A DNA stretch of 64,000 nucleotides, from the NCBI RefSeq assembly GCF_963976355.1, contig NZ_CAXBKA010000002.1, forward strand, positions 598,711 through 662,710, read 5' to 3'. Below, in pieces: positions 2,001 through 44,000 of this stretch. A program made the translations under genes and the position numbers. Every line of letters begins with the position of its first letter. Position 1 is the stretch's first letter. Source of the DNA: an uncultured Sneathiella sp. (GTDB lineage: Bacteria; Pseudomonadota; Alphaproteobacteria; Sneathiellales; Sneathiellaceae). Under the pieces are notes generated by a model. That model was not told the origin of the DNA. It searched no databases and saw only the letters and a list, made by a program, of their open reading frames with translations.

Positions 2001-2039
2001 GGTTCACCTCCGCGTCTGTCGTCACGCATATACGGGGTT

Positions 2040-2668
2040 ATGTCCTATAGATCAACTTTATATCCGGGATCGATTAGAAATGCACTCTGATTCGTCAATA
2101 AAAAATATACTGAATTTCTCTCCAATTTAATTGCAATCCGATATTTTTCTCATAAAAATATTATAATTCAATAATTAGCGAAATAGTTGAATAGAAGAAA
2201 ATAGAATATTCAGCGATTCGATTTAGTAAAATCTATCAATGCGAGGAAATTTTTTAAAATGAAAAGCAATTTTTGATAGAAAAATAATTAATATAAAAAT
2301 CATATAAGTTAATTTAGGGCGAATTAACCATAAAAAATCATAGAATTAACTATAATTAAATAAAATTTAATGTGACTCTTTCATAAATCAATTTTATAGT
2401 TGAAAACATCTTGACGGAAATAAGTCAACAAAAATAACTAGTTATTGAGTTTGTTGATTTTTTTGTAGAATTAGTTTTCGTTTTAGTCGCGTATCCGGTT
2501 TTTGTTACAGATATAGAGGCGATATATTTTCCACTGATCTCGTATTTGTTGCTTTTTATGATCCAGTGAATTCGCCTCCTGAAGGGGTATATAACAATTT
2601 AATAGTGTATTTTGGCTTGTTGTCTTTACCTGAATTTATAAGCCAAGTCTAACTTTGGGGGTTATGAT
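2040..2668. promoter_or_regulatory. Extremely AT-rich divergent intergenic/promoter region between the glycosyltransferase and flp
   Basis: No ORF of 60 aa or more. The 60-nt lines I counted (2101-2160, 2281-2340) are 22% and 17% GC in an otherwise ~60% GC window. It contains a GAATTAAC direct repeat (2321-2328, 2343-2350), TTAA-N7-TTAA (2356-2370) and a possible sigma-70-like TTGGCT-N17-TTTATA (2612-2640). Confidence 0.6.
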
Positions 2669-2854
2669 ATGAGAAAAATACTGACGGATTTATGGAATGA
2701 TGAAACCGGCGTGACGGCGGTTGAATATGCCTTGATGGCCGCCGCCGCGGCGGCAGTCGTGGGCGTTGCCGGAACCGCTTTCTATACCAAGCTGCAAACG
2801 GCGTTCAATGCCATTGATCTTTCGGGGTCCGGCAGCGCAACGCCGCCGAACTGA
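2669..2854 (+). CDS. flp: Flp-family type IVb/IVc prepilin
   Basis: 61 aa. The Flp processing motif G/VTAVEYALMAA follows a short charged leader (MRKILTDLWNDETG), then a hydrophobic helix. A GGGGG Shine-Dalgarno lies upstream. It is the first gene of the tad locus. Confidence 0.9.
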   Translation: MRKILTDLWNDETGVTAVEYALMAAAAAAVVGVAGTAFYTKLQTAFNAIDLSGSGSATPPN

Positions 2855-2879
2855 GCAAGTCATTTCAGGACAGTACCTT

Positions 2880-2904
2880 CCGCGCGGAATATTTGTCCGC
2901 GCGG
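2880..2904 (+). terminator. Stem-loop between flp and cpaA (possible partial terminator or attenuator)
   Basis: Perfect 9-bp inverted repeat CCGCGCGGA-atatttg-TCCGCGCGG, 26 nt after the flp stop. There is no clear U-tract. Confidence 0.4.
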
Positions 2905-2918
2905 GAGGGCCCAAACTC

Positions 2919-3416
2919 ATGACAGAATATTATCCGATATTTGCCATACTCCTGCTCTGGCTGGCGGCCTGGACCGATCTCACGCGGCGCCTTATCCGCA
3001 ACTGGATCTCCATCGCCCTGCTGTTGCTGTTTGTACTGTTCGCCTTTTTTACGGCGCAGCCGCTTGATGTCGCGGGGCATATGCTTTGGGCGGCGGGACT
3101 GTTTGCCGTCATGTTCATCGGCTTCTGCTTTGGCAAGGTCGGCGGGGGCGATGTCAAGCTCGCGACGGTCACCATGCTTTGGGCGGGACCGGAAATGGGG
3201 CCGGTTTTCTTGGTTGTCACGGCGCTGACCGGCGGAGGTCTCGCGATTGTCATGCTGTTGCCGCAGCTGCGCCTGCTCTCCGAATGGGCCTTCGCGCCGA
3301 TAACGAAACATCTGGCCTCGCCGGAGCCCGCCGATGCGGCGTCGGTTCCCTATGGGGTCGCGATTGCGACCGGTGGCACCGCCGCGCTCTACGCCTCATA
3401 CATAAGCGGTGGTTAG
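2919..3416 (+). CDS. cpaA: Prepilin peptidase CpaA/TadV (A24 family aspartic peptidase)
   Basis: Polytopic membrane protein with the two Asp motifs (AAWTDLTRR and GGGDVKLATV). The start is moved to ATG 2919 (MTEYYPIF) within listed ORF 2766..3416. Confidence 0.8.
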   Translation: MTEYYPIFAILLLWLAAWTDLTRRLIRNWISIALLLLFVLFAFFTAQPLDVAGHMLWAAGLFAVMFIGFCFGKVGGGDVKLATVTMLWAGPEMGPVFLVVTALTGGGLAIVMLLPQLRLLSEWAFAPITKHLASPEPADAASVPYGVAIATGGTAALYASYISGG

Positions 3417-3425
3417 GAGGGAGGC

Positions 3426-4250
3426 ATGAAAAGCTTTATCTTCATTCTCCTGTCCGCCCTGTTTCTCGGTTCCGCCGCCTATCTCGGGAATATGTTTCTT
3501 TTCGAGGACGGGGCGCAGCCGCCCGTTTCCCTGCTGGCGCCTACGAAGGCGCCGGAGCAATATGCGCTGAGCCTGACGCGACCCGTGAAAAACGGCAACA
3601 TTCTGGAAAAAGACATGCTGATGTGGCGTCCCGTACCGGAGGATATCCCAGCGGGAAGGCTGTTGCTGAAAGGAGAGGCTGAACTGGCAGACTGGTCGGG
3701 TGCCGTTCTCACCCGGGACTTGCCTAAAGGCGCCTTTCTTGAAAAAGCGCGCCTCGTTCTGCCGACGGACCCCGAGTATATGAAGGCGCTGCTGACGGAA
3801 GGGATGCGTGCGCGCCCCGTGGCCATCGACAATGCCGGGGAGTTCGGCGATCTTCGCGCCGGGGACCATATTGATCTCATCCTGACCTACAAGGCGCCTG
3901 CGGGCAGTGTCGGGGACGGGGAGACGGTCGTCAAAACCATACTAGAGAGCGTGCGCGTTGTCGGAACAGGAACAGGTGCTTCAGGCTCCCTCACGCTGGC
4001 GCTCTCTCCCGCGGATGTTGAGCTGGTATCGGTCGCGGAGACAATCGGCCGCCTTAAGGTTTCCCTGCGCGGGGAAACTAATGGTGACGCACCCCGAAGC
4101 ACAGCGGATGTCGCTGCCTTCTCTGCAAGCGATCTCTTTCCGGAGCTGAAATCATCGCCCCGTCCTGTTGTACAAAATACGGCAAGGGAAGTCCGGATAT
4201 TCCGCGGCGGCGAGACGAAGGTCCTCACCCTCACAGGCGGAGGTCAATAA
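3426..4250 (+). CDS. cpaB: Flp pilus assembly protein CpaB/RcpC
   Basis: 274 aa with an N-terminal TM/signal anchor (MKSFIFILLSALFLGSAAYL). Its position between cpaA and the secretin fits. A strong SD (AGGAGGGAGG) precedes it. Confidence 0.8.
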   Translation: MKSFIFILLSALFLGSAAYLGNMFLFEDGAQPPVSLLAPTKAPEQYALSLTRPVKNGNILEKDMLMWRPVPEDIPAGRLLLKGEAELADWSGAVLTRDLPKGAFLEKARLVLPTDPEYMKALLTEGMRARPVAIDNAGEFGDLRAGDHIDLILTYKAPAGSVGDGETVVKTILESVRVVGTGTGASGSLTLALSPADVELVSVAETIGRLKVSLRGETNGDAPRSTADVAAFSASDLFPELKSSPRPVVQNTAREVRIFRGGETKVLTLTGGGQ

Positions 4251-34204: not shown

Positions 34205-36010
34205 TTAGGCCGCGCCGTCCTCGATCGCCTTCAGGAAGGTCGAGCCGTATTTCTCCAGCTTGCTGCGGCCGACGCCCTGCAATTCCCCGAAGGCCGTAAG
34301 CGACTGGGGCTTGAGCGCCGCCATCTCGATCAATGTCCGGTCATGGAAAATAACATAGGGCGGGACATTCTGTTCTTTTGCGAGGGTAAGGCGGACGGAT
34401 TTCAGAAGGTTGAACAGTGCCTCCTCATGGGCGTTAGAAAAATTGCGGGATGGTTTCGCCGTCGACTTCTCGCCCTTCGGCCGCGCCGGGCTCTTTTTCA
34501 GCTCCAGCGTTACGTCCCCTTTGAGAACCGGGCGGCAGCTCTCGTCCAGCGACAGGCCGCCATACCCCTCCATATCGACATTGAGCAGCCCATGGGCGAG
34601 CAGCTGGCGGAAGATCGATTGCCAGTCCGGGCGGCTGATCCCCTTGCCCATGCCATAGGTGCTGAGGCGGTCATGGCCGAATTTGCGGATTTTCTCGGTT
34701 TCCGCGCCAAAGAGGATATCGATGATATGACCGGCGCCGAACATCTCGCCGCTCCTGTATATACAGGAGAGGGCCATCTGCGCCGCTTCCGTGGCATCGA
34801 AAAGATCGGCCGGTTCCAGACAGTTGTCGCAGTTGCCGCAGGTTTCGGGCGGATCCTCCCCGAAATATTTCAGGATCAGGTAACGTCGGCAGAGCGCGCT
34901 TTCGCAGAACTGCAAAAGCGATTCGAGCTTCGTGCGGTCCAGCTGCTGCTGGGCGAGCGTCTTGTCCGGGTTCTGCATCAGGAACTTGAGTTTCGCCACA
35001 TCCTGAAGGCCATAGGCAAGCCAGGCATCGGCGGGCAAGCCGTCGCGCCCGGCGCGGCCTGTCTCCTGATAATAGCTCTCCATATTCTTCGGCAGGTCCA
35101 GATGGGCGACGAAGCGCACATCCGGCTTGTCGATCCCCATGCCGAAGGCGATGGTCGCGACGATGATCACCGCATCCTCCTTCAGGAAGCGTGCCTGCGT
35201 CGCCTGCCGTGTCTCCGCTTCCAGCCCGGCGTGATAAGGGAGCGCAATGCGTCCCGTCGCGGCAATCTTCGCGGCGACCTGCTCCACCTTCTTGCGGGAC
35301 ATGCAATAGACAATACCCGCATCCTCGTTATGTTCGGTCTTGATGAAATCGAGCAGCTGCGCCGTGCCATTGGTCTTGGTTGTCAGGCGGTAACAGATAT
35401 TCGGCCGGTCGAATCCGGCGCGATAAATTTCCCCATAAGAAAGGCCAAGCCGCTCGACGATATCCTTCTCCGTCGGCTCATCCGCCGTGGCGGTAAGGGC
35501 GAGGCGCGGCACATTCGGGAACTTCTCGTGCAGGACAGCAAGGCGGAGATACTCGGGGCGGAAATCATGGCCCCATTGCGAGACACAATGCGCCTCGTCA
35601 ATCGCGAAGAGAGAAATCTCAGAGCGTGAGACAAGATCAAGAAAACCGCCCGCAAACAGCCGTTCCGGCGCAATATAGAGGAGTTTGAGCTCGCCGTTCA
35701 GGAAGGCGGTCCGGACCCTTTCCTGTTCCTCCAGGCTATGGGCGGAATTAAGCGCCGCCGCCGCGATGCCGAGCTGTTGCAGGGCTTCCACCTGGTTCTG
35801 CATCAGGGCGATCAACGGCGAAATGACGATGGCCGTTCCCTCCATGCAGAGCGCCGGGATCTGGTAGCAGAGCGACTTGCCGCCACCCGTCGGCATGAGG
35901 ACGAGGGCGTCTCGCTTGGCAATGATATGATCGATAATGTCGGCCTGGTCCCCCCGGAACGCGGGATAGCCGAAAACGGAGGTGAGAATCTGGACAGGGT
36001 TACGCAACAT
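34205..36010 (-). CDS. recQ: ATP-dependent DNA helicase RecQ
   Basis: 601 aa with MPTGGGKSLCYQIPA, FAIDEAHCVSQWGHDFRPEY, the zinc-binding CGNCDNC and a C-terminal HRDC-like region. Confidence 0.95.
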   Translation of the reverse strand: MLRNPVQILTSVFGYPAFRGDQADIIDHIIAKRDALVLMPTGGGKSLCYQIPALCMEGTAIVISPLIALMQNQVEALQQLGIAAAALNSAHSLEEQERVRTAFLNGELKLLYIAPERLFAGGFLDLVSRSEISLFAIDEAHCVSQWGHDFRPEYLRLAVLHEKFPNVPRLALTATADEPTEKDIVERLGLSYGEIYRAGFDRPNICYRLTTKTNGTAQLLDFIKTEHNEDAGIVYCMSRKKVEQVAAKIAATGRIALPYHAGLEAETRQATQARFLKEDAVIIVATIAFGMGIDKPDVRFVAHLDLPKNMESYYQETGRAGRDGLPADAWLAYGLQDVAKLKFLMQNPDKTLAQQQLDRTKLESLLQFCESALCRRYLILKYFGEDPPETCGNCDNCLEPADLFDATEAAQMALSCIYRSGEMFGAGHIIDILFGAETEKIRKFGHDRLSTYGMGKGISRPDWQSIFRQLLAHGLLNVDMEGYGGLSLDESCRPVLKGDVTLELKKSPARPKGEKSTAKPSRNFSNAHEEALFNLLKSVRLTLAKEQNVPPYVIFHDRTLIEMAALKPQSLTAFGELQGVGRSKLEKYGSTFLKAIEDGAA

Positions 36011-36094
36011 ACCCCTTTATACAGTCATCCTGTCGCCGATCAATGGGGGATTGGCGGACGGAGGCGGGTTATTCGCCTTCGCCGGTTGGTGAGG

Positions 36095-36361
36095 TCAGCC
36101 GCGCTGCTTCAGCTGTTCCTTGAGCGCCTGTATTTCGAGGGCGGCTTCGGCGAGGAGTGATTTCAGACGCTGGTTTTCCTCGTCAACTTTTTTAAGGCGG
36201 CTTATTTCCTGGGCGCCGCTCTGCTCGGCCCGTTTTTTCCAGCGGTAGAGTGTCGCCCGGGAAACATCATGGGCCTTTGCTGTCTCTTCCATCGTCCGGC
36301 CGCCGGCCAGTTCCTGAAGGATCATGTTGATCTCCTGCTGAGTATAACTTTTGCGTTCCAT
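36095..36361 (-). CDS. Orphan IS3-family transposase OrfA-like HTH/leucine-zipper protein (no OrfB)
   Basis: 88 aa. HTH AKAHDVSRATLYRWKKR plus the coiled coil ENQRLKSLLAEAALEIQALKEQLK is typical of IS3/IS911 OrfA. Only 84 nt separate it from recQ, so no orfB follows. Confidence 0.6.
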   Translation of the reverse strand: MERKSYTQQEINMILQELAGGRTMEETAKAHDVSRATLYRWKKRAEQSGAQEISRLKKVDEENQRLKSLLAEAALEIQALKEQLKQRG

Positions 36362-36461
36362 GAGACTGAACGTCCTCGATTGAATGTTTTTACCGTGCCA
36401 TCATGCCTCAGCTTTCCGTTGTCGTTTCATATCCGTTGCCGTCGCCAGCGAGAGGGCTGTC

Positions 36462-36791
36462 CTACTTCTTCCCGAGTTCATTGACCACCGCCTGGAGGGC
36501 GGCGAGATTTTCCGGTATGGCGCTGCCGGCGATCAGATCCTGCGAGGCCTTCGCCGCCGCGGCCGGATCGGAACTCAGCAACTGCTTGGATGCTGCGATG
36601 GTAATGGCGTTATGTATCGAATAGCTATGTTGCTGTTGCGCGATGACGTTCTGAAGCGCGAGCCCGACTGAGTGGGCCATCTGCTGATACAGAATGGCCA
36701 TTGCCTCGGATGGGGCATCCCCCAGGACGCTTAAATTCGTCTGCGCGATGGCGCCCGTTATCTGGCTGTTTACAAATGACTCTGATGGCAT
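36462..36791 (-). CDS. RebB-family (R-body 'killing trait') protein, paralog R1
   Basis: 109 aa. VNSQITGAIAQTNLSVLGDAPSEAMAILYQQMAHSVGLALQNVIAQQQ matches the Reb signature. Confidence 0.85.
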   Translation of the reverse strand: MPSESFVNSQITGAIAQTNLSVLGDAPSEAMAILYQQMAHSVGLALQNVIAQQQHSYSIHNAITIAASKQLLSSDPAAAAKASQDLIAGSAIPENLAALQAVVNELGKK

Positions 36792-36847
36792 TGCCGCTCT
36801 CCTGTTGTCCTTCTGGGTTGTCCGGGTGATACGATTTTATCGGGACG

Positions 36848-37252
36848 CTAAGGCTTCAGCGGTGTCTGCGGCGGGGCGTGGGGCGGCGTTGCCGCCGTCG
36901 GGCGGGCGGCCGGTTGCAGCGCATGGCTGTTATGGTGGAAATGGTGGGTGGCCAGCGGATAGCGCGATTGGTTTAGTACGCCCGCCGTGCTGCGTCCGGC
37001 TGTCGCCGAAGAGAGCGCCAGCAGCGATTGCAGGTTCTGCGCCGTTGACGCCAGGCTGAGGCTGTAGTTGTTCTGCTGGTTTGCCACTGCATTCTGCATG
37101 GAGGTGCCCACGGCCTGCGCCGTGGTCTGGTAAAGGGTGCCCAGTGATTGGGCCGGCGCAAGGCCGATATTCATCACATTCGTCTGGGTGATGGCATCGG
37201 TGATCTGGCTGTTCACCGACTTTGTCTGTTCCGATGTCTTGGTTGCGGTCAT
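36848..37252 (-). CDS. RebB-family protein, paralog R2, with a His/Pro-rich C-terminal extension
   Basis: 134 aa. The core is VNSQITDAITQTNVMNIGLAPAQSLGTLYQTTAQAVGTSMQNAVANQQ. The tail is HHFHHNSHALQPAARPTAATPPHAPPQTPLKP. Confidence 0.8.
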   Translation of the reverse strand: MTATKTSEQTKSVNSQITDAITQTNVMNIGLAPAQSLGTLYQTTAQAVGTSMQNAVANQQNNYSLSLASTAQNLQSLLALSSATAGRSTAGVLNQSRYPLATHHFHHNSHALQPAARPTAATPPHAPPQTPLKP

Positions 37253-37374
37253 GGGCTTATCCTGTTGCGATCGATGCGGCCGCCGGGTCGAATACTACGC
37301 TTCTGCCACCCCGGGCGACAAAGGCGCAATATTCGATATACCGGTGAGAATAAAGCTGTTCTCAGGCAGCGGGG

Positions 37375-37731
37375 TTATGTGTTGAATTTTGGGGCGTTCG
37401 GGTTCTCCTGGCGAAAGCTCGACAGGACGCCTTTCAACGCCGCCATGGTTTCGGCGACCGGGTTGCCGCTCAGGATTTCCTGAGTAGACTTGCCTTCCGC
37501 TGCGACATCCAGGGTATACAGCAGGCTGACCGCCCCGGTAACCACAGCAGAATCGATGGAATTCTTATGCTGCTGGTTGGCGACCATATTCTGCATCGAC
37601 ATACCTGTGGACTGTGCGAGCATCTGGTACAGCATGCCCATTGATTCCGCCGGGGCATCGCCCAGCACCTTGACGTTTGTCTGGGTGACTGAATCGGTGA
37701 TCTGGCTGTTCATCCAAGTATTATCCGCCAT
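37375..37731 (-). CDS. RebB-family protein, paralog R3
   Basis: 118 aa. MNSQITDSVTQTNVKVLGDAPAESMGMLYQMLAQSTGMSMQNMVANQQ. SD AAAGGAG upstream. Confidence 0.88.
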   Translation of the reverse strand: MADNTWMNSQITDSVTQTNVKVLGDAPAESMGMLYQMLAQSTGMSMQNMVANQQHKNSIDSAVVTGAVSLLYTLDVAAEGKSTQEILSGNPVAETMAALKGVLSSFRQENPNAPKFNT

Positions 37732-37772
37732 TATCTAACTCCTTTATCTTTCATGTCCTTGGTAAAAGCCGC

Positions 37773-38093
37773 TTAGAATGCTCTCGCGGCGGCCTGTAGT
37801 GAGGTGAGGGCTTCCGCAACCGGGTTGCCGCCGAGAATCTCGGAGGTTGCCTTGGAATCGGTGGCCGTTGACATGGCGTAGAGAACATTCGTTCCCTGCG
37901 TTGTCACCGCGAGGTCAACCGAGTTGGCTCCCTGCTGGTTCGAAATGGCATTCTGCATGCTCGCGCCGACGACCTGGGCAAAAACCTGATAGGCATTGGC
38001 CATGGCAATGGCGGGCGCATCTCCCAGAATGCTGACATTGGCTTGGGTAACGGAATCGGTTATCTGGGCATTGACTGGTGTATCCCCTGGCAT
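37773..38093 (-). CDS. RebB-family protein, paralog R4
   Basis: 106 aa. VNAQITDSVTQANVSILGDAPAIAMANAYQVFAQVVGASMQNAISNQQ. SD AAAGGAGA upstream. Confidence 0.88.
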   Translation of the reverse strand: MPGDTPVNAQITDSVTQANVSILGDAPAIAMANAYQVFAQVVGASMQNAISNQQGANSVDLAVTTQGTNVLYAMSTATDSKATSEILGGNPVAEALTSLQAAARAF

Positions 38094-38141
38094 GGGTCAT
38101 TCTCCTTTAATAGTCTCAGGAACTCTTTCCTGTTAATGAAA

Positions 38142-38495
38142 TTAGGTTTGTGACTTCTGTGCTGTTTGCGCTTTCTTCAATTCAACGATGATAGCCTGAA
38201 GCGCGGAGACTATTTCTGCGTTTACATTTCCGGACAGGATTTCCTGTGATGCCTTCGCATCGAGCGAGGTATCCAGGCTGTAAAGCATGGCAACCCCCTG
38301 GCTGACGATGGCGTTGTCAATGGTGTTCATGCTGTGCTGGTTGGCGACCGCATTCTGCATGGACACACCGACGGCCTGGGCCATCATCTGATAGACCGTC
38401 CCCATGGATTGCGCCGGCGCACCACCGATCACTATCATGTTGGACTGGGTAACGGCATCGGTTATTTGGCTATTGACGGGTGTGTCGTTTGCCAT
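38142..38495 (-). CDS. RebB-family protein, paralog R5
   Basis: 117 aa. VNSQITDAVTQSNMIVIGGAPAQSMGTVYQMMAQAVGVSMQNAVANQH. SD AAGAGGA upstream. Confidence 0.88.
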   Translation of the reverse strand: MANDTPVNSQITDAVTQSNMIVIGGAPAQSMGTVYQMMAQAVGVSMQNAVANQHSMNTIDNAIVSQGVAMLYSLDTSLDAKASQEILSGNVNAEIVSALQAIIVELKKAQTAQKSQT

Positions 38496-38582
38496 GGACT
38501 AATCCTCTTTCATTCCTGTCAGCGTTGATCGAGAGAGGCAATTAATCCTCTTTCAATATGCAGAAGACGCCGGGGCGTGAGA

Positions 38583-38861
38583 TTATGTGACGCAACGGTG
38601 AGATTTTCTTGCGGCCGTTGCGAAAACTCTCAACCGTCTTGAGACTGAGCGGAATGATCCCGTATGCGACTCCCTGCCGGGGCAGGGGTGAAACTGGCGG
38701 AATTCTGCGAATAAGGCCGTACAGTCTTCATCGCGTTGGATATCCGGATTTACAGAAAAAAGAGTGTCATCTTTTTTGAGTTTAAAGGTGCTGAAGGGGT
38801 CGAAAACCGGGAAATCTCGGACTAGACCTGTATCGGCAAGCAGGGCGTGAGAGAGGCGCAA
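38583..38861 (-). CDS. Hypothetical 92-aa protein embedded in the reb array (no Reb motif)
   Basis: TTG start preceded by a strong SD AAGGAGGAG (38873-38881). It lies on the same strand between R6 and R5. A line I counted here (38701-38760) is 42% GC. I recognise no family. Confidence 0.4.
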   Translation of the reverse strand: MRLSHALLADTGLVRDFPVFDPFSTFKLKKDDTLFSVNPDIQRDEDCTALFAEFRQFHPCPGRESHTGSFRSVSRRLRVFATAARKSHRCVT

Positions 38862-38892
38862 GGCGAAGCGAACTCCTCCTTGCGGATCGTCG

Positions 38893-39345
38893 TTATCCGC
38901 CCATCTGCTGGACGATCTTGTTCATGGCGGCTGCGGTGGCCGCAACGGCATCGGCGGTGATGCCCGCAATTTCCTGACTTGTCTGCGCGGCGAGCGCGGT
39001 GCCGCCAGCGCTTGTGACCGCGTTCAGGCTGGTGGTGGCCGCCTGGGTCTGTGCGTTCAGGGCCTGGGTAATGGCGGCCGTCTGAGCATTGTAGGATTCG
39101 CCGATCGTTGCCTTCTGCGCGCTGATCGAGACGGCCTCGGCGTTCTTGAGGGCGGTGAGGGCGGCGGCACCGGCGTTGGTGACGCTGTTCATCATGTTCG
39201 AATTTGCCGTCGCATTTTCGAGCGCGAGGCCCGAGGAATGGGCGGCGAACTGATAGAGGAGGCCCATTGCGAAGGTCGCCGAGTCCTCGATTTTAGCAGG
39301 AGCGGGGGAGGATGCGCCATCGCCCCCGGATGAAGTTGTTGCCAT
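38893..39345 (-). CDS. Divergent RebB-like protein, paralog R6 (lacks the N-terminal NSQITD block; Ala/Thr/Gln-rich C-terminus)
   Basis: 150 aa. It retains only the central Reb block FAMGLLYQFAAHSSGLALENATANSN, followed by low-complexity NAQTAAITQALNAQTQAATTSLNAV... The SD is weak. Confidence 0.6.
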   Translation of the reverse strand: MATTSSGGDGASSPAPAKIEDSATFAMGLLYQFAAHSSGLALENATANSNMMNSVTNAGAAALTALKNAEAVSISAQKATIGESYNAQTAAITQALNAQTQAATTSLNAVTSAGGTALAAQTSQEIAGITADAVAATAAAMNKIVQQMGG

Positions 39346-39404
39346 GAGATTGATCCATAAAAAAATATGCCAGAAGAATGATTACTTAAAGTTGTCAAAG
39401 TCAG

Positions 39405-39878
39405 TTATGGGGTTGTGGAAGACGACGGTGTCTCGGACTTGCTGTCGTCCGAAGATTTTGTCTCCGTACTTGTGTCCGATGCCGGTTTGTCGGTGCTATC
39501 CGACGTCGTCTTGCTGTCGGTAGTGGACGCTGTGCTTGAGCCGTCCGAGCTGTCGGTTGCGGCCGGAGCAGCAGACGGATTGGTAGCAAGGGTCATCAGT
39601 TTCTGGAGATAGTCGAGACGCTCTGTCGGGGTCAGCTTTTCAATCTGGTCGGCAAATCCGTTCCGGAGCAGCCCGCTCGTTCCCGCGGCGACGGCGGCAG
39701 CTCCGAGAATATTGAGATGCTGCTGATTGGTGACCGCATTCTGGGACGCCATGCCGGCCGCCTGGGCAAGATTAAGATACATGGTTGCCATGGATTTTGC
39801 AGTAGAACTTCCTAAAAGTATCTCGCTTGTAGCAAGTACGGAGTTTTGTATTTGATCATCTGATTGTGAATTTGCCAT
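39405..39878 (-). CDS. RebB-like protein, paralog R7, with an acidic Ser/Thr-rich C-terminal tail
   Basis: 157 aa from ATG 39878 (the listed ORF extends to 39923 inside AT-rich DNA). The core is QIQNSVLATSEILLGSSTAKSMATMYLNLAQAAGMASQNAVTNQQ. The tail is ATDSSDGSSTASTTDSKTTSDSTDKPASDTSTETKSSDDSKSETPSSSTTP. Confidence 0.7.
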   Translation of the reverse strand: MANSQSDDQIQNSVLATSEILLGSSTAKSMATMYLNLAQAAGMASQNAVTNQQHLNILGAAAVAAGTSGLLRNGFADQIEKLTPTERLDYLQKLMTLATNPSAAPAATDSSDGSSTASTTDSKTTSDSTDKPASDTSTETKSSDDSKSETPSSSTTP

Positions 39879-40174
39879 TATTATAATTCCATTTTTTAAA
39901 TATTTTAAATAACAATAAAACAATAAATATATATTTATAAAAATATTGCAATATCGAATTTATATTTACTAATTATATTTGTTTTATTAATGGAATTCTG
40001 AGTCAGTATTATCATAAACATACGCCCGTATTAAAAATATAAAAAATGAAAAAGACACTTTAAAAGTGCATAAAGCTGCCCAAATAGAAATCATCGACGG
40101 GCAGCACAACCAAACGGCACGGCCCTTTTAGCCAGTTTTGTATTCCTGAAATTAAAATTTACTAGGGGGATAAC
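39879..40174. promoter_or_regulatory. AT-rich divergent control region between the reb array and the ECF sigma gene
   Basis: Lines 39901-39960 and 39961-40020 count to 10% and 18% GC. An inverted repeat GCTGCCC-N17-GGGCAGC lies at 40075-40105. No ORFs are present. Confidence 0.6.
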
Positions 40175-40888
40175 GTGAATCCGCTCAGGCAAGAAACACA
40201 ACCTAAACCCGATTTTCAAACCTATAAATTCGGCCCGGAGCGCCGTCTTTCTTTTCCGGAAATTTCACCGGTATATCCTTTAAATTTTAAAATCATGGAC
40301 ACAGACCTTGAGTCTGAAGATGTCCCCGTGAAATCTGTATCATCGGAGGAAGAGGCGCCAAGCGCCGATGAATTCTGGAAAGCATGGCACTCCCATAAGG
40401 AGTATTTAATTCGTCTCAGCATGATCTGGATGAATATCAGTGCGGCGGATGCCGAAGATGCCTTCAGCGATGCCACCATCCGCGCCTATGAGAAATATGC
40501 AGATCATGCCGCCCAGATCAGTAACGAGCGGGCCTGGTTCGCGCGATTGCTGCATAACATCTGCATCGACAAGCACCGGGCCAACAAGCGGCTGAAAAAT
40601 CTCTATGAGAAGGTCAAGGAAATCAGCACCATCGATCTCTCCGCCTATGAGACGCGACAGCTGACACCGGAGGGCAACCTGCTGAATTCCGAACTCGGAC
40701 TGCGTCTGCGCGAGGCGATAGAGGGACTGCCCGACCGGTTGCGCGGTCCGGTCGTCCTCCGGCTGGTGCAGGGGGAAGAGTATGAGACAATCGCGCACAA
40801 ACTCGGAATCTCCAATGACAATGTCCGCAAAAGGGTGCAGCAGGGTCGGGCACTGCTCCGCGAGAATCTGGAGATATTTCGCGGTTAA
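40175..40888 (+). CDS. ECF-type RNA polymerase sigma-70 family factor
   Basis: Region 2 (DAEDAFSDATIRAYEKY...WFARLLHNICIDKHR) and region 4 HTH (LPDRLRGPVVLRLVQGEEYETIAHKLGISNDNVRKRVQQGR). The GTG start has SD AGGGGGA; an alternative start is ATG 40295. Confidence 0.85.
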   Translation: MNPLRQETQPKPDFQTYKFGPERRLSFPEISPVYPLNFKIMDTDLESEDVPVKSVSSEEEAPSADEFWKAWHSHKEYLIRLSMIWMNISAADAEDAFSDATIRAYEKYADHAAQISNERAWFARLLHNICIDKHRANKRLKNLYEKVKEISTIDLSAYETRQLTPEGNLLNSELGLRLREAIEGLPDRLRGPVVLRLVQGEEYETIAHKLGISNDNVRKRVQQGRALLRENLEIFRG

Positions 40889-41007
40889 ATCCTCCTGATT
40901 GCACTATATTTTGATTTCCCTATCGACATCCCCCCGCGAAATCGGGTAACGATATTCGTTAGTACTTCCGGTGAAAGCCGGATCAAGTAGCTGGGGAGCT
41001 ATTACAT

Positions 41008-44000
41008 ATGAAAGACGGCATTGCTGCGCGTGATCCACGCGCGGACACTTCGCCCGTTGTATCCGACGAAGTGAAATTCACAACCTGCTATATGTGCGCC
41101 TGCCGATGCGGGATAAAGGTTCATCTGAAAGATAACAAGGTCCGTTATATCGAGGGGAACCCCGATCATCCGGTGAACCGGGGCGTCCTCTGCGCCAAGG
41201 GATCCGCCGGGATCATGCAGCAGAATTCTCCGGCAAAACTCAAGAAACCTCTCCTGCGCGTTGGTGAGCGGGGCGAGGGAAAATTCAGGGAAATAGAATG
41301 GGATGAGGCACTTGAGCTGGCGACCGGCTGGCTTCAGGAGGTGCGGGGCGACGATCCCGCCAAACTTGCCTTTTTCACCGGCCGCGATCAGTCCCAGAGC
41401 TTCACCGGCTGGTGGGCCAAGCAGTTCGGCACCCGCAATTTCGCTGCCCATGGCGGTTTCTGCTCGGTCAATATGGCGGCGGCGGGCCTTTACAGCATTG
41501 GCGGGTCGTTCTGGGAATTCGGCGAGCCGGACTGGGACCTGACGAAATATTTCCTCATGTTCGGTGTGGCGGAAGATCATGATTCCAACCCCATCAAGAT
41601 GGGTCTTGGCAAGCTGAAAACCCGGGGCGATGCCAAATTCGTCTCCGTCAATCCCGTGCGCAGCGGCTATTCCTCCATTGCCGATGAATGGCTCGGCATT
41701 ACGCCGGGCACGGACGGCCTGTTCGTGATGGCGATCATTCACGAGCTGCTGCGTGCCGAGAAGATCGACTGGGAGTATTTGAAGCGCTATACCAACGCCT
41801 CCTGGCTGGTGGTTCAGGCGGAAGGTGAGGCGGAGCACGGGCTGTTTGCCCGCAACGCGACGGGGATCTCTCTTGTCGCGACGCCGGATGGAAAACTGCT
41901 GCCGCTCAGCGATCGCAAGGCGGACCCTGTGCTTGTCGGCAGCTATACCCTGCCGTCGGGACAGAGAGCGGTTCCGGCCTTTCAACTGATGGCCGAACGA
42001 TATCTTTCCGAGGAATATAATCCGGATACAGTGGCCGCGCGGGTCGGGATCGAGGCGAAGACGATCCGCCGGATCGCCGCCGAGATCGCCGAGGCCGCGT
42101 TCGAGAAGGAAATCACCCTCGATATTCCCTGGACGGACTGGGCCGGCCGGCCGCAGCAGAAAATGATCGGCCGTCCGGTCTCCATGCATGCCATGCGCGG
42201 CATTTCCGCTCATTCCAACGGCTTTCACACCTGCCGCGCCATTCATCTTCTGCAGATGCTGATCGGCAGCATCGATGTGCCGGGCGGGTTCCGGCACAAG
42301 CCGCCCTATCCGAAACCCTGTCCGCCCGGACCGCTCCCTGCGGGGCAGGAGACGCGGGCGAATACGCCCTTGGATGGCATGCCGCTCGGTTTTCCGAAGG
42401 GACCGGAGGATCTGCTGGTTGATGAGGCCGGAAACCCGAAACGCATCGACAAGGCCTATAGCTGGGAATATCCGCTGTCGGCCCACGGGCTCATGCACAG
42501 CGTCATCCATAACGCCTGGGCGGGGGAGCCGCAGGAAATCGACGTTCTGTTCATGTATATGGCGAATATGGGCTGGAACAGCTCGATGAATGTGCCGGAC
42601 ACCATCCGCTATCTGACGGACAGGAAGCCGGACGGCAGCTATAAAATTCCGAAATTCATCTATTCCGACGCCTATCATTCCGAGACCGTGGCCTTTGCCG
42701 ATCTGGTGCTGCCGGACACCACCTATCTGGAACGCTGGGATTGCATTTCGTTGCTGGACCGGCCGATTTCCTCCGCCCATGGCGCGGCGGATGCCATTCG
42801 TCAGCCCATTCTGGCGCCGGGCCGCGATGTCCGCCCGTTCCAGGATGTGATGCTCGACCTCGGAGTGCGGCTGTCACTACCGGGCTTCGTCACGGAGGAT
42901 GGATCGGCGCTCTATCCGGGCGGCTATTCCGACTATATCGTCCATCATGAACGCACGCCGGACATCGGCCCGCTGGGCGGCTGGCGCGGTGAGGACGGAT
43001 CGGGGCAGGGGCGCGGCGCGGCGAATGAGGCGCAGCTCGATGCCTATATCGCGAATGGCTGTTTCTGGGAGAAGAAATTCACGCCCGAGCAGTCCTATTA
43101 CAAGTTCGCCAACAAATCCTATCTGGAGGAGGCCGTCCATATGGGCTGGCTCGCCATGCCGGGACCGGTGGTGATGGAAATTTACTCCGAAACGATGCAG
43201 AAATTCCGTCTCGCCGCCGAAGGGCATGGCCGCCGGCAACCGCCCGATCACTTGCGCGGGCGCGTCGCTGATTTCTTCGATCCGCTGCCGCTCTGGTATG
43301 CGCCCTTTGCCGATGCGGATATCGACAAGGGGCCGGGTTATCCGCTGCATGCGGTGACGCAACGGCCGATGCATATGTACCATAGCTGGGGCAGTCAGAA
43401 CGCCTGGCTCCGCCAGATTACGGCCCGCAACCCGATCTTCCTGCATGCGGATATGGCGCGGGAAAAGGACATCGCCGATGGTGACTGGGTGTGGATCAAC
43501 TCGCCCCATGGCCGGGTGAAGGCGCAGGCGAAGCTGATGCGCGGGGTCAACCGCAACACCATCTGGACCTGGAACGCCATTGGAAAGCGCAAGGGGGCCT
43601 GGAACCTGAAAGAAGACGCGCCGGAAGCAACAAAAGGCTTCCTCCTCAACCATATCATTTCCGAACTGCTGCCCCCGCGTGAGGATGGCTATCGCTATTC
43701 CAACTCCGATCCGGTGACGGGGCAGGCCGCCTGGTACGACCTTCGCGTCAATATCGAGAAATGCGCCGTGGCCGAATTCGGCGAAACGGAGCCGATGTAC
43801 GATGCGCAAGGCCCCGTCGACCTTGACGCTCCGCCGGACATGCTGCGCTATGGAGCGGACTTGAAGGGCAAGGAAAGTTCTCTTGAGCCGGTCGCCATGA
43901 AAGACTGGATCGGCAACCGTGCGGAAAATGCGGCGCAGACCACCGGCATCAAGCCCGGCCATGGCAACCAGACCACCGAACGACACAAGAAGGAAAAAGA

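What the first reader, a model, noticed from the sequence alone, without database searches (positions are those of the whole stretch)
36462..40888. Seven-paralog R-body (RebB 'killing trait' family) gene array with a dedicated divergent ECF sigma factor
Seven same-strand ORFs (minus strand, 36462-39878; 106-157 aa) are clearly paralogous.

- **Shared motif.** Five of them share the block [VM]N[SA]QIT[DG]-x-[VI]-x-Q-x-N-x3-[LI]G-x-AP-x2-[SA][ML]-x3-YQ-x7-G-x-[SA][ML]QN-x-[VI][AS]NQ[QH]. An example is VNSQITDAVTQSNMIVIGGAPAQSMGTVYQMMAQAVGVSMQNAVANQH in 38142..38495.
- **Family.** This is the signature I know from RebA/RebB/RebD. Those are the ~100-115 aa subunits of R-bodies, pH-triggered extendable protein ribbons first described in Caedibacter kappa particles. 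Functional homologs have been reported in Azorhizobium caulinodans and Pseudomonas aeruginosa.
- **Organisation.** The array is denser than the classical four-gene reb locus. It has seven Reb paralogs, one non-homologous embedded ORF, an adjacent ECF sigma factor and an IS remnant.
- **Composition.** Two 60-nt lines inside 38161-38280 count to 48% and 52% GC, against 62% for a recQ line (35041-35100).

This looks like a horizontally acquired, self-regulated R-body module that has probably never been characterised in this lineage.
Basis: partly seen in the sequence, partly recalled or inferred. Interest (0 to 1): 0.85.

Follow-up and report, generated by a model that had tools for sequence, protein, structure and literature searches.

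The report
R-body gene cluster with dedicated sigma factor
This marine Sneathiella bacterium carries a conserved, intact set of seven genes for R-bodies (spring-like protein ribbons that can burst the membranes of cells that eat the bacterium) with its own switch gene. It is a real cluster of an already known kind, not a new type of system.

Summary
Seven same-strand ORFs (36462-39878, minus strand) are Reb paralogs. Six pass the Pfam RebB gathering score. The seventh (R6) falls just below it but is a divergent Reb by profile-profile comparison. An ECF-type sigma gene lies divergently next to the array.

- **Not a recent horizontal acquisition.** The module sits beside recQ in all eight named Sneathiella species, and a differently flanked copy is in Oceanibacterium, in the same family.
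- **Not an IS remnant.** The 88-aa HTH protein closes the reb operon in at least six genera.
- **Not a gene.** The "embedded ORF" is non-coding spacer.

New here is a bipartite motif, TCACA-N16-CGTCT, 71 nt upstream of R5. It is conserved across the genus. It is enriched upstream of reb genes only in loci that hold a homolog of this sigma (17 sites against 1.3 expected), and in other genera it also precedes the sigma gene itself. This supports direct control of reb transcription by the sigma factor.

The kind is known. Rhodospirillum centenum makes R-bodies and has a seven-gene reb operon next to a sigma gene. Links between sigma factors and reb genes were published in 2013 and 2021. Verdict: a new member of a known kind, with moderate interest.

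The parts
36095..36361 (-). HTH88: an 88-aa HTH plus leucine-zipper protein of IS3-OrfA type (Pfam HTH_Tnp_1). It is the terminal gene of the reb operon and a candidate dedicated regulator, not an IS remnant.
   Evidence: - Pfam HTH_Tnp_1, E 2.5e-16.
- Conserved directly after the last reb gene, on the same strand, in all Sneathiella loci except S. marina. Also in Oceanibacterium (49%), Acetobacteraceae (37%), Skermanella (37/34%), Rhodocista (31%) and Eilatimonas (36%).
- Single copy in the window.
- The nearest relatives among 5.8 billion proteins are only Sneathiella orthologs.
- Only 84 bp separate it from recQ, so no OrfB fits.
36462..36791 (-). R1, a Reb paralog (109 aa).
   Evidence: - RebB 63.7 bits.
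- 1:1 orthologs in Sneathiella and Oceanibacterium.
- Its clade lies next to the short RebD-like proteins in an NJ tree without bootstrap.
36848..37252 (-). R2, a Reb paralog (134 aa) with a variable His/Pro-rich C-terminal tail.
   Evidence: - RebB 73.3 bits.
- The tail is poorly conserved among orthologs.
37375..37731 (-). R3, a core Reb paralog (118 aa) and the best conserved of the seven.
   Evidence: - RebB 92.6 bits.
- 90%, 81% and 70% identical to its S. litorea, S. glossodoripedis and Oceanibacterium orthologs.
37773..38093 (-). R4, a core Reb paralog (106 aa).
   Evidence: - RebB 77.5 bits.
- 1:1 orthologs at 94%, 76% and 66% identity.
38142..38495 (-). R5, a core Reb paralog (117 aa) and the first gene of the five-gene unit.
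   Evidence: - RebB 90.9 bits.
- The identical protein is found on more than 23 marine metagenome contigs.
38565..38590 (-). Candidate ECF-type promoter of the R5-R1-HTH88 unit: TCACA-N16-CGTCT, 71 nt upstream of the R5 ATG. The inferred transcription start is near 38558.
   Evidence: - Only match in the 64-kb window, and the only match with at least 8 of 9 core bases upstream of a gene in the module.
- Conserved at this place in the Sneathiella loci recovered, in nearly all as an exact match.
- In 14 non-redundant loci that hold a sigma homolog: 17 sites upstream of reb genes against 1.26 expected, Poisson p 4e-14. In 16 loci without one: 0 sites.
- Also found upstream of the sigma gene in other genera.
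38496..38892 (-). Non-coding spacer between R6 and R5. Its 3' ~170 nt form a conserved promoter/leader block with an A-tract upstream of the -35 element.
   Evidence: - No gene was called here on the metagenome contigs.
- No Pfam hit.
- ORF identity decays fast.
- Alignment A4 shows only the promoter-proximal block conserved.
- Deeper Sneathiella species hold an opposite-strand M24 peptidase gene at this place.
38857..38884 (-). GC-rich hairpin just after the R6 stop codon; a possible terminator or attenuator separating R7-R6 from R5-R1.
   Evidence: - Window: dG -17.5 kcal/mol, z -1.1, so weak here.
- Relatives have hairpins of different sequence at the same place, with z from -2.2 to -4.65.
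38893..39345 (-). R6, a divergent Reb (150 aa). It has lost the N-terminal VNxQITD motif and carries an Ala/Gln/Thr-rich C-terminal half. It belongs to an old, separate subfamily.
   Evidence: - RebB 20.5 bits, below the gathering score.
- hhalign probability 97.4%.
- Orthologs are 65-97% identical across Sneathiellaceae, and reciprocal best hits exist in Rhodocista, Skermanella and Acetobacteraceae.
39405..39878 (-). R7, a Reb paralog (157 aa) with an acidic Ser/Thr/Asp-rich disordered tail. It is the first gene of the array.
   Evidence: - RebB 38.0 bits.
- The ATG at 39878 is conserved.
- Fast-evolving: 63% identity in S. litorea and 33% in S. glossodoripedis.
39879..40174 (.). Divergent AT-rich control region (GC 0.26). 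It contains a genus-conserved palindrome CACTTTAAAAGTG (40056-40068) and ATAC-N4-GTAT (40020-40031). It has no ECF motif.
   Evidence: - GC content.
- Conserved blocks in alignment A5.
- The palindrome is unique and present in nearly all Sneathiella loci.
- A sigma-70-like TTTAAA-N17-TATATT at 40064-40036 (-) overlaps the palindrome; this is a consensus match only.
40175..40888 (+). ECF-type sigma factor (237 aa from the GTG at 40175).
   Evidence: - Sigma70_r2 and r4_2; TIGR02937 71.2 bits.
- The start is backed by an invariant AGGGGG Shine-Dalgarno sequence and a GTG/ATG exchange at the same position in relatives.
- Co-located homologs (38-51% identity) in five other genera, and weaker ones (30-36%) in Thalassospira, Kordiimonas and Myxococcus.

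Best explanation
The locus 36095-40888 is a vertically inherited, self-contained R-body module of the family Sneathiellaceae. It is of the same type as the seven-gene reb operon of Rhodospirillum (Rhodocista) centenum.

**Shown here**
- Seven distinct Reb paralogs fall into at least four old subfamilies: the core R2-R5, and the R1, R6 and R7 types.
- A divergently encoded ECF sigma factor belongs to the module.
- A small IS3-OrfA-like HTH protein is the last gene of the operon.
- A TCACA-N16-CGTCT site precedes R5.

**Inferred mechanism**
1. An unknown signal acts on the AT-rich divergent region, probably through the conserved palindrome. It turns on the sigma gene and the R7-R6 pair.
2. RNA polymerase carrying the ECF sigma recognises the TCACA-N16-CGTCT promoter. 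It transcribes R5-R4-R3-R2-R1-HTH88.
3. The HTH protein feeds back on the circuit, as RebR does at the end of the Azorhizobium reb operon.
4. The Reb proteins co-assemble in the cytoplasm into a coiled ribbon. R3-R5 are likely the bulk subunits. R1, R2, R6 and R7 are likely minor or assembly subunits.
5. When a grazer ingests the cell and its phagosome acidifies, the ribbon unrolls and ruptures membranes.

Step 2 has only comparative-genomic support. Steps 1, 3, 4 and 5 rest on family membership and on published work in other species.
For: **Family and paralogy**
- Six of seven proteins pass the RebB gathering score. R6 is joined by profile comparison and by its orthologs.

**Purifying selection**
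- All seven genes are intact and syntenic in about 30 Sneathiella loci and in Oceanibacterium.
- R1 and R3-R6 are more conserved than the neighbouring RecQ: 85-94% against 83% in S. litorea, and 65-81% against 58% in S. glossodoripedis.

**Sigma linkage**
- A homologous sigma (38-51% identity) sits beside homologous arrays in five other genera.

**Promoter**
- The motif is conserved upstream of R5 in the Sneathiella loci recovered, as an exact match in nearly all.
- It lies upstream of both the sigma gene and reb genes in Oceanibacterium, Skermanella and Eilatimonas. It precedes the sigma gene in the Acetobacteraceae MAG and a reb gene in Rhodocista.
- Thalassospira loci carry 6-10 copies, several of them just upstream of reb genes.
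- Enrichment is 17 against 1.26 expected, p 4e-14, and 0 in loci lacking this sigma.
- The same motif follows distant sigma homologs in non-reb contexts, as expected of the sigma's own specificity.

**Literature**
- R. centenum forms R-bodies. Its seven-gene reb operon RC1_1993-1999 is induced up to 50-fold during cyst formation, and the nearby sigma gene RC1_2001 rises early (PMC4340629).
- In P. aeruginosa PA14 the reb-cluster sigma FecI2 is required for rebP1 expression and R-bodies are produced (PMC8322103).
- In Azorhizobium the last gene of the reb operon is an activator (PMC5527310).
Against: - No experiment exists for any Sneathiellaceae. R-body formation, pH-triggered extension and toxicity are all inferred.
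- The count of the motif in the window alone is not significant: 1 found against 1.32 expected by chance. The case rests on position and conservation.
- No ECF motif precedes R7 or the sigma gene in Sneathiella. The sigma is therefore not visibly autoregulated here, and R7-R6 must use another promoter.
- S. marina keeps the array and the sigma but has lost HTH88, so HTH88 is dispensable for keeping the module.
- More distant sigma homologs (33-39% identity) have no RebB neighbour.
- Casas-Pastor et al. suggested that multi-copy RebB proteins next to ECF sigmas might have a role other than R-body assembly.
Confidence: 0.75

Rival explanations
1. The Reb-like proteins do not build R-bodies here. 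They have another role, for example as modulators of the ECF sigma (a substitute for an anti-sigma factor) or as a different intracellular polymer.
For: - Casas-Pastor et al. raised this for ECF237, because several RebB copies and no other R-body proteins flank the sigma.
- No anti-sigma gene is conserved next to this sigma.
- R6 and R7 depart from canonical Reb proteins.
Against: - RebC has no homologs outside Caedibacter, so its absence is not informative (PMC3583457).
- R. centenum, whose locus type (sigma, reb array, HTH) is seen here in its congener Rhodocista pekingensis (L034), visibly makes R-bodies.
- Five core paralogs score 64-93 bits on RebB.
- The reb genes carry the sigma's target promoter. 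They are outputs of the sigma, not inputs to it.
Confidence: 0.12
2. One reading: a recently and horizontally acquired island marked by low GC and an IS remnant.
For: - R5, R7 and the sigma gene have somewhat lower GC (0.53-0.54) and GC3 (0.58-0.67) than neighbouring genes.
- The divergent intergenic region has 26% GC.
- The 88-aa ORF matches transposase HTH models.
- reb clusters are patchily distributed and are thought to spread by horizontal transfer (PMC13430693).
Against: - The same insertion site next to recQ is seen in all eight named Sneathiella species and many MAGs.
- R2 and R6 are at or above background GC.
- The HTH gene is conserved at the operon end across genera and has no OrfB.
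- There is no tRNA in the window.
- An ancient transfer into an ancestor of Sneathiellaceae is not excluded.
Confidence: 0.05
3. The sigma factor is only a neighbour. The reb genes are transcribed by the housekeeping sigma under other regulators, and the TCACA-N16-CGTCT site is an operator or a chance feature.
For: - No experimental transcription start is known.
- R7-R6 lack the motif.
- The single window match is within chance.
- In Azorhizobium the reb operon is controlled by PraR and RebR with no sigma factor reported.
Against: - Fixed 15-16 nt spacing, with a variable spacer sequence, across phyla.
- The motif co-occurs strictly with this sigma clade.
- It is present upstream of the sigma genes themselves and next to sigma homologs outside reb loci.
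Confidence: 0.08

Closest known systems
Rhodospirillum (Rhodocista) centenum reb operon RC1_1993-1999 with sigma RC1_2001. This is Reb 'group 5' of Dorr et al. 2026, whose seed is rcRebE (107 aa).
   Same: - A multi-gene same-strand reb array; seven R-body genes are reported for R. centenum.
- An adjacent sigma-70-family gene.
- In the congener Rhodocista pekingensis (L034): a sigma 39% identical, core Reb proteins 55-58% identical, an R6-type ortholog, an HTH_Tnp_1 gene at the operon end, and the TCACA-N15-CGTCT motif before a reb gene.
- R-bodies have been seen in R. centenum, and the operon is induced up to 50-fold in cysts.
   Different: - A different order (Sneathiellales, marine) with no known cyst stage.
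- In Sneathiella the array is split into two units, R7-R6 and R5-R1, by a spacer. In some species that spacer holds an M24 peptidase gene.
- There is no ECF motif before the sigma gene or R7.
- Orthology of RC1 gene numbers to L034 genes is inferred, because the R. centenum sequence itself was not in hand.
Pseudomonas aeruginosa PA14 reb cluster (rebP1, rebP2, rebD, rapA, rcgA, fecI2). This is the Group 2 synteny of Raymann et al. 2013.
   Same: - Reb-family structural genes with a cluster-encoded sigma factor that is needed for their expression.
- R5 is 47% identical to RebP-type proteins of Pseudomonas spp..
   Different: - Pseudomonas-type loci have 2-3 reb genes, no homolog of this sigma by tblastn, and no TCACA-N16-CGTCT motif.
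- The sigma in Paraburkholderia Group-2 loci is only 22% identical.
- The co-regulator there is RcgA. The cyclic-nucleotide-binding regulator of Group 2 is HP2.4. Neither is an IS3-OrfA-like HTH protein.
Caedibacter taeniospiralis type 51 R-body locus rebA-rebB-rebC-rebD
   Same: - The same protein family (Pfam RebB).
- Several paralogs with split roles: major subunits plus minor or assembly factors.
   Different: - Four genes on a plasmid in an obligate endosymbiont. RebC has no homolog here or anywhere else.
- No sigma factor is reported.
- Identity to the Caedibacter proteins was not measured here.
ECF237 (Casas-Pastor et al. 2021): an ECF group whose genes neighbour several RebB genes
   Same: An ECF sigma with several RebB genes in its neighbourhood and no obvious anti-sigma factor.
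   Different: - ECF237 is described as mainly from Bacteroidetes, with a Moorea example.
- Whether the Sneathiella sigma falls in ECF237 could not be tested, because the group HMMs were not available.
Azorhizobium caulinodans reb operon with RebR and PraR
   Same: A regulator is encoded as the last gene of the reb operon, and expression is tightly controlled.
   Different: - RebR is a Crp-Fnr protein, whereas HTH88 is an IS3-OrfA-like HTH/zipper protein.
- The Azorhizobium operon has four reb genes and no sigma factor reported.

Membership tests
RebB / R-body structural protein family (Pfam PF11747) | Match to the RebB profile above the curated gathering score (24 bits) | tested here: met
   R1-R5 score 63.7-92.6 bits and R7 scores 38.0 bits. 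R6 alone is below the cut-off at 20.5 bits, but hhalign gives 97.4% probability and its orthologs reach E 9.4e-14.
RebB / R-body structural protein family (Pfam PF11747) | Small proteins (~100-115 aa) encoded as clustered paralogs | tested here: met
   Sizes are 106-157 aa, and all seven lie within 3.4 kb on one strand. R2, R6 and R7 are longer because of low-complexity tails.
R-body system (functional definition) | Assembly into SDS-insoluble coiled ribbons visible by electron microscopy | not testable with these tools
   Needs expression and TEM. The only indirect support is that R. centenum, a congener of the Rhodocista locus L034 that shares this layout, makes R-bodies.
R-body system (functional definition) | Reversible pH-triggered extension and membrane rupture or killing | not testable with these tools
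   No computation available. No solved Reb structure is in the PDB by sequence search.
ECF (group 4) sigma factors | Only sigma-70 regions 2 and 4, and a match to the ECF superfamily model above its cut-off | tested here: met
   Sigma70_r2 plus Sigma70_r4_2, with no region 1.1 or 3 hit. TIGR02937 scores 71.2 bits against 42.9.
ECF (group 4) sigma factors | Cognate anti-sigma factor encoded next to the sigma gene | tested here: not met
   No conserved extra gene lies next to the sigma across genera. In the window the neighbours are R7 and a molybdopterin oxidoreductase. This feature is common in the family but not obligatory.
ECF237 subgroup | Assignment by the ECF Hub group HMM | not testable with these tools
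   The HMMs were not available. The context feature (several RebB neighbours) is met, but the published taxonomic range differs.
FecI2-type reb-cluster sigma (Pseudomonas, Group 2) | Sequence similarity to the sigma of Group-2 reb loci | tested here: not met
   There is no tblastn hit in the Pseudomonas loci at 1e-4. Identity to the Paraburkholderia locus sigma is 22%, E 3.7e-4. The function is analogous but the subgroup is different.
IS3-family insertion sequence (remnant) | OrfA followed by an OrfB DDE transposase, or its remains, between terminal inverted repeats; multi-copy or patchy presence | tested here: not met
   - Only 84 bp lie between the HTH ORF and recQ, and 100 bp between it and R1.
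- It is single-copy in the window.
- No close IS copies exist among 5.8 billion proteins.
- It holds a fixed position in more than 30 loci of six genera.
- Terminal inverted repeats were not searched for.
- Only the HTH_Tnp_1 domain itself is shared.

The most novel reading that the evidence does not exclude
The Rhodocista/Sneathiella-type R-body operons carry a conserved three-part control circuit that has not been described:
- an ECF sigma clade with the promoter specificity TCACA-N15/16-CGTC(T/A), which extends from Alphaproteobacteria to Myxococcota;
- a domesticated IS3-OrfA transposase HTH protein, fixed as the last operon gene and acting as a dedicated regulator;
- in Sneathiella, a second input through a palindromic operator in an AT-rich divergent region.

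If so, the seven paralogs are non-redundant subunits of a heteromeric R-body, and the R6 and R7 types act as nucleating or capping subunits.
Probability: 0.35. Interest if true: 0.55.

Novelty: new member of a known kind. Interest (0 to 1): 0.38.

Why it matters
- **Lineage.** R-bodies are rare mechanical protein machines of interest for predator-prey ecology and as engineered membrane-breaking actuators. This places an intact, strongly conserved module in a whole family of cultivable marine bacteria (Sneathiellaceae), where it has not been reported.
- **Promoter.** It gives a concrete, testable promoter and sigma pair for the Rhodocista-type operons. That could serve for controlled expression.
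- **Annotation.** Genomes label the HTH gene 'transposase', but it is a conserved operon member.
- **Limits.** It does not change what is known about how R-bodies work.

Tried and rejected
- **Rfam on 35900-41100 at E <= 1.** No RNA family found.
- **Sigma-70 promoter and terminator scan.** Eight promoter-like matches against 4.0 +/- 2.2 expected, and four terminator-like matches against 5.6 expected. Neither count is significant, and none of the terminator-like matches lies at the 3' end of a module gene.
- **PDB sequence search with the Reb profile.** No solved relative.
- **His-rich tail of R2 (THHFHHNSH) as a possible pH sensor.** Not conserved beyond close relatives, so dropped.
- **M24 peptidase remnant in the window spacer.** No tblastn trace.
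- **Azorhizobium operator consensuses.** The PraR (CAAC-N5-GTTG) and RebR consensuses were compared by eye with the conserved palindromes. They do not match.
- **Search from the sigma side.** Homologs below about 45% identity are not reb-linked. One TPR-fused homolog sits beside a contractile injection system. 'Dedicated' therefore holds only for the reb-linked subclade.
- **ECF237 membership.** Could not be tested, because the supplements and HMMs were not held.
- **Structure prediction.** Not run. A helical model would not have changed the verdict.

Full report
**1. Observation**

| Name | Coordinates | Length |
|---|---|---|
| R1 | 36462-36791 | 109 aa |
| R2 | 36848-37252 | 134 aa |
| R3 | 37375-37731 | 118 aa |
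| R4 | 37773-38093 | 106 aa |
| R5 | 38142-38495 | 117 aa |
| R6 | 38893-39345 | 150 aa |
| R7 | 39405-39878 | 157 aa |

- Pfam RebB (PF11747, gathering score 24 bits) is matched by R1-R5 at 63.7-92.6 bits and by R7 at 38.0 bits. R6 scores 20.5 bits, below the cut-off.
- R1-R5 are 39-53% identical to one another. R6 and R7 are 25-42% identical to the others over shorter stretches.
The written motif has one spacing error (x7 should be x6). With that fixed it matches R2-R5, and R1 with one substitution.
- The ORF at 40175-40888 (+) is an ECF-type sigma factor: regions 2 and 4, TIGR02937 71.2 bits against a cut-off of 42.9.

**2. R6 is a divergent Reb**

- Orthologs of R6 from 12 other loci were aligned.
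- The Oceanibacterium, Acetobacteraceae, Rhodocista and Skermanella members keep the N-terminal Reb motif that the Sneathiella proteins have lost.
- hhalign of this alignment against the five core paralogs gives probability 97.4%, E 1.4e-11.
- All 13 members hit Pfam RebB at E <= 0.01, the best at 9.4e-14.
- 'Seven paralogs' is therefore right, with R6 as a separate old subfamily.

**3. Source and distribution**

- The identical R5 protein occurs on more than 23 metagenome contigs, including Tara Oceans contigs, with the same gene order.
- A scan of one genome per species returned 79 loci. The best are Sneathiella MAGs at 97% identity, followed by S. sedimenti, S. litorea, S. chungangensis, S. 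chinensis, S. glossodoripedis and many MAGs.
- tblastn and hmmsearch over all loci show the order sigma | R7 R6 | R5 R4 R3 R2 R1 | 88-aa HTH | recQ in every sufficiently long Sneathiella locus, down to 58% RecQ identity. S. marina, added next, is the one exception: it lacks the HTH gene.
- Starting from sigma homologs, S. marina, S. aquimaris and S. limimaris were added. All eight named species therefore carry the module.
- Oceanibacterium hippocampi, in the same family, has an eight-gene version with a 51% identical sigma but without recQ next to it.
- The module is ancestral to the family. It is not a recent island.
- Composition agrees. Reb gene GC is 0.53-0.64 and GC3 is 0.58-0.78, against 0.58-0.63 and 0.70-0.79 for neighbouring genes. 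The only sharp anomaly is the 296-bp divergent intergenic region at 0.26.
- A comparable AT-rich leader (GC 0.21-0.30) precedes the Tad/Flp pilus operon at the start of the window. AT-rich control regions are a habit of this genome.

**4. The 'IS remnant' is a conserved operon gene**

- The 88-aa ORF at 36095-36361 matches HTH_Tnp_1 (E 2.5e-16) and weakly matches IS3 transposase models.
- It lies directly after the last reb gene, on the same strand, in the following:

| Lineage | Identity to window HTH88 |
|---|---|
| Sneathiella | 45-95% |
| Oceanibacterium | 49% |
| Acetobacteraceae MAG | 37% |
| Skermanella | 37% and 34% |
| Rhodocista | 31% |
| Eilatimonas | 36% |

- Invariant positions include the ...AT.YRW... 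recognition stretch and an EEN..L leucine-zipper segment.
- It is single-copy in the window.
- Its only close relatives among 5.8 billion proteins are Sneathiella orthologs, all annotated 'transposase'.
- There is no room for an OrfB, because the gaps on either side are 100 and 84 bp.
- S. marina has lost it.
- I read it as a domesticated transposase HTH protein serving the module, probably as a regulator. Its DNA target is unknown.

**5. The 'embedded ORF' is spacer**

- ORF 38583-38861 has a TTG start and no family hit, and it was not called on the metagenome contigs.
- Its identity falls to 72% and then 55% in relatives whose neighbouring R6 stays at 96-97%, and then it vanishes.
- The spacer is 330-505 bp in the window's clade and 69 bp in Oceanibacterium.
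- In the deeper Sneathiella clade it is about 950 bp and holds an opposite-strand 245-aa Peptidase_M24 gene, which is methionine-aminopeptidase-like.
- No remnant of that gene is detectable in the window.

**6. Promoter evidence**

- Alignment of the spacer shows that only its last ~170 nt are conserved, and this block persists across the genus.
- Its core is TCACA-N16-CGTCT at 38565-38590 (-), 71 nt upstream of the R5 ATG. The spacing is fixed and the spacer sequence varies, as in ECF promoters. An A-tract lies upstream.
- The pattern TCACR-N15-17-CGTCW occurs once in the window against 1.32 expected, so the count alone proves nothing.
- It is, however, the only match with at least 8 of 9 core bases upstream of any gene in the module.
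- In other genera it lies upstream of both the sigma gene and a reb gene: Oceanibacterium, Skermanella and Eilatimonas have both, the Acetobacteraceae MAG has it before the sigma gene, and Rhodocista has it before a reb gene.
- Thalassospira loci have 6-10 copies, Archangium has 6 and Kordiimonas has 6. Those listed lie 15-94 nt upstream of reb ORFs.
- In 14 non-redundant loci with a sigma homolog, 17 sites fall in reb-upstream windows against 1.26 expected (Poisson p 4e-14). In 16 loci of the Pseudomonas/Lysobacter/Paraburkholderia type, which lack this sigma, there are none.
- The motif also sits just after, or beside, distant sigma homologs that have no reb neighbours.
- Together this argues that the motif is the recognition sequence of this sigma clade and that R5-R1(-HTH88) is a direct target.

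In Sneathiella neither R7 nor the sigma gene carries the motif. The divergent region instead has a genus-conserved palindrome, CACTTTAAAAGTG (40056-40068), and ATAC-N4-GTAT (40020-40031). A hairpin follows R6; it is weak in the window and strong in relatives. I infer two transcription units and a second, unidentified regulator.

**7. Start of the sigma gene**

- The GTG at 40175 is preceded by an invariant AGGGGG. Two relatives have ATG at the same position.
- This supports the 237-aa form over the 185-197-aa forms found in some annotations.
- The first ~65 residues precede region 2 and vary between clades.

**8. Paralog history**

- Reciprocal best hits give 1:1 orthologs for R1, R3, R4, R6 and R7 in Oceanibacterium. 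R6 also has them in Rhodocista, Skermanella and the Acetobacteraceae MAG.
- An NJ tree, indicative only because it has no bootstrap, places the R6-type, R7-type and R1-type clades as old lineages.
- In that tree the R3-R5 core groups with the Rhodocista/Skermanella/Eilatimonas core. It is separate from the Pseudomonas/Lysobacter/Paraburkholderia RebP-type proteins.
- R1 and R3-R6 are more conserved than RecQ. R2 and R7, which carry low-complexity tails, evolve fast.
- This pattern fits non-redundant subunits.

**9. Comparison with what is known**

- Multi-copy reb loci are published: R. centenum with six or seven genes and Marinomonas with nine.
- A 2026 survey lists 671 taxa and 1,406 synteny patterns. 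It defines a rare 'group 5' seeded on Rhodocista rcRebE.
- Sigma factors beside reb genes were noted in 2013 as HP2.3, in 2021 as ECF237, and were shown to be required in PA14 as FecI2.
- In R. centenum the reb operon is induced up to 50-fold in cysts, and the nearby sigma RC1_2001 rises early.
- The Sneathiella sigma is not the FecI2 type. Its ECF group could not be assigned.
- No paper in the searched library links Sneathiella to R-bodies.

**10. Verdict**

This is a real, intact R-body module with a dedicated ECF sigma. It is a new member of a known kind in an uncharacterised family.

The horizontal-transfer, IS-remnant and embedded-ORF parts are wrong. The 'denser than classical' point is true but not novel.

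The added value here is:
- the promoter motif and its strict co-occurrence with the sigma clade;
- the conserved transposase-derived HTH gene;
- the split of the array into two units.

R-body formation and its trigger remain inferred.

Noticed in passing
L021:9051-9839 (-), L022:9021-9758 (-), L029:9051-9788 (-), L041:8080-8817 (-), L091:4071-4808, L092:4124-4861. The window equivalent is the spacer 38496-38892.: In the deeper Sneathiella clade a 245-aa Peptidase_M24 gene (methionine-aminopeptidase-like; Pfam E about 1e-42) sits on the opposite strand between R6 and R5, inside the reb array. It is absent without trace in the window's clade and in Oceanibacterium. It may be a dedicated N-terminal processing enzyme for Reb proteins, or just an insertion.
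   Followed up: partly
window 2001-2668 (AT-rich) and 2669-4250: A 650-bp stretch with 21-30% GC precedes a Flp pilin gene (2669-2854, Pfam Flp_Fap E 4e-11) and a CpaB/RcpC gene (3426-4250). This marks the start of a Tad pilus locus. Long AT-rich leaders are therefore not peculiar to the reb module in this genome.
   Followed up: partly
L090 (Sneathiella marina CP098747), 2401-2610: S. marina keeps all seven reb genes and the sigma gene. It has lost the 88-aa HTH gene, leaving a 208-bp gap. It has also lost the molybdopterin oxidoreductase and Fe-S subunit genes on the other side of the sigma gene. It is a natural knockout useful for testing the role of the HTH protein.
   Followed up: partly
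L031 (contig JBALWO010000001.1): This contig is labelled 'MAG: Pseudomonas marincola', but it carries the full Sneathiella-type module with Sneathiella-like RecQ (62% identity) and flanks. The contig or the bin appears to be misassigned.
   Followed up: no
L089:7001-7963 and flanks: A TPR-fused homolog of the sigma (33% identity, 320 aa) lies divergently next to an extracellular contractile injection system locus with sheath, tube and Pvc16 genes. Other TPR-fused homologs occur in Acidobacteriota. The sigma family is used by other loci that have no annotated RebB neighbour, one of them a contractile injection system.
   Followed up: no
window 40175-40330; P0025 and P0028: NCBI annotations of close orthologs start the sigma protein at about residue 52 (185-186 aa). 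One metagenome gene call starts at Met41 (197 aa). An invariant AGGGGG Shine-Dalgarno sequence and a conserved GTG/ATG at 40175 support the 237-aa form.
   Followed up: partly
L006:2176-3051: On one Tara contig the R6 reading frame runs on into the spacer (291-aa ORF), and the R7-to-R5 distance (stop to start) is about 110 bp longer than in the window. This may be a strain variant or an assembly artefact.
   Followed up: no
L021:11157-11181, L022:11168-11192, L026:11177-11202, L027:11169-11194, L041:10194-10219. The window equivalent is 37253-37374.: The deeper Sneathiella clade has a second TCACR-N15/16-CGTCW site just upstream of the R2 ortholog. In the window this 122-bp gap, the largest inside R5-R1, has no match with 8 or more of the 9 core bases.
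   Followed up: partly
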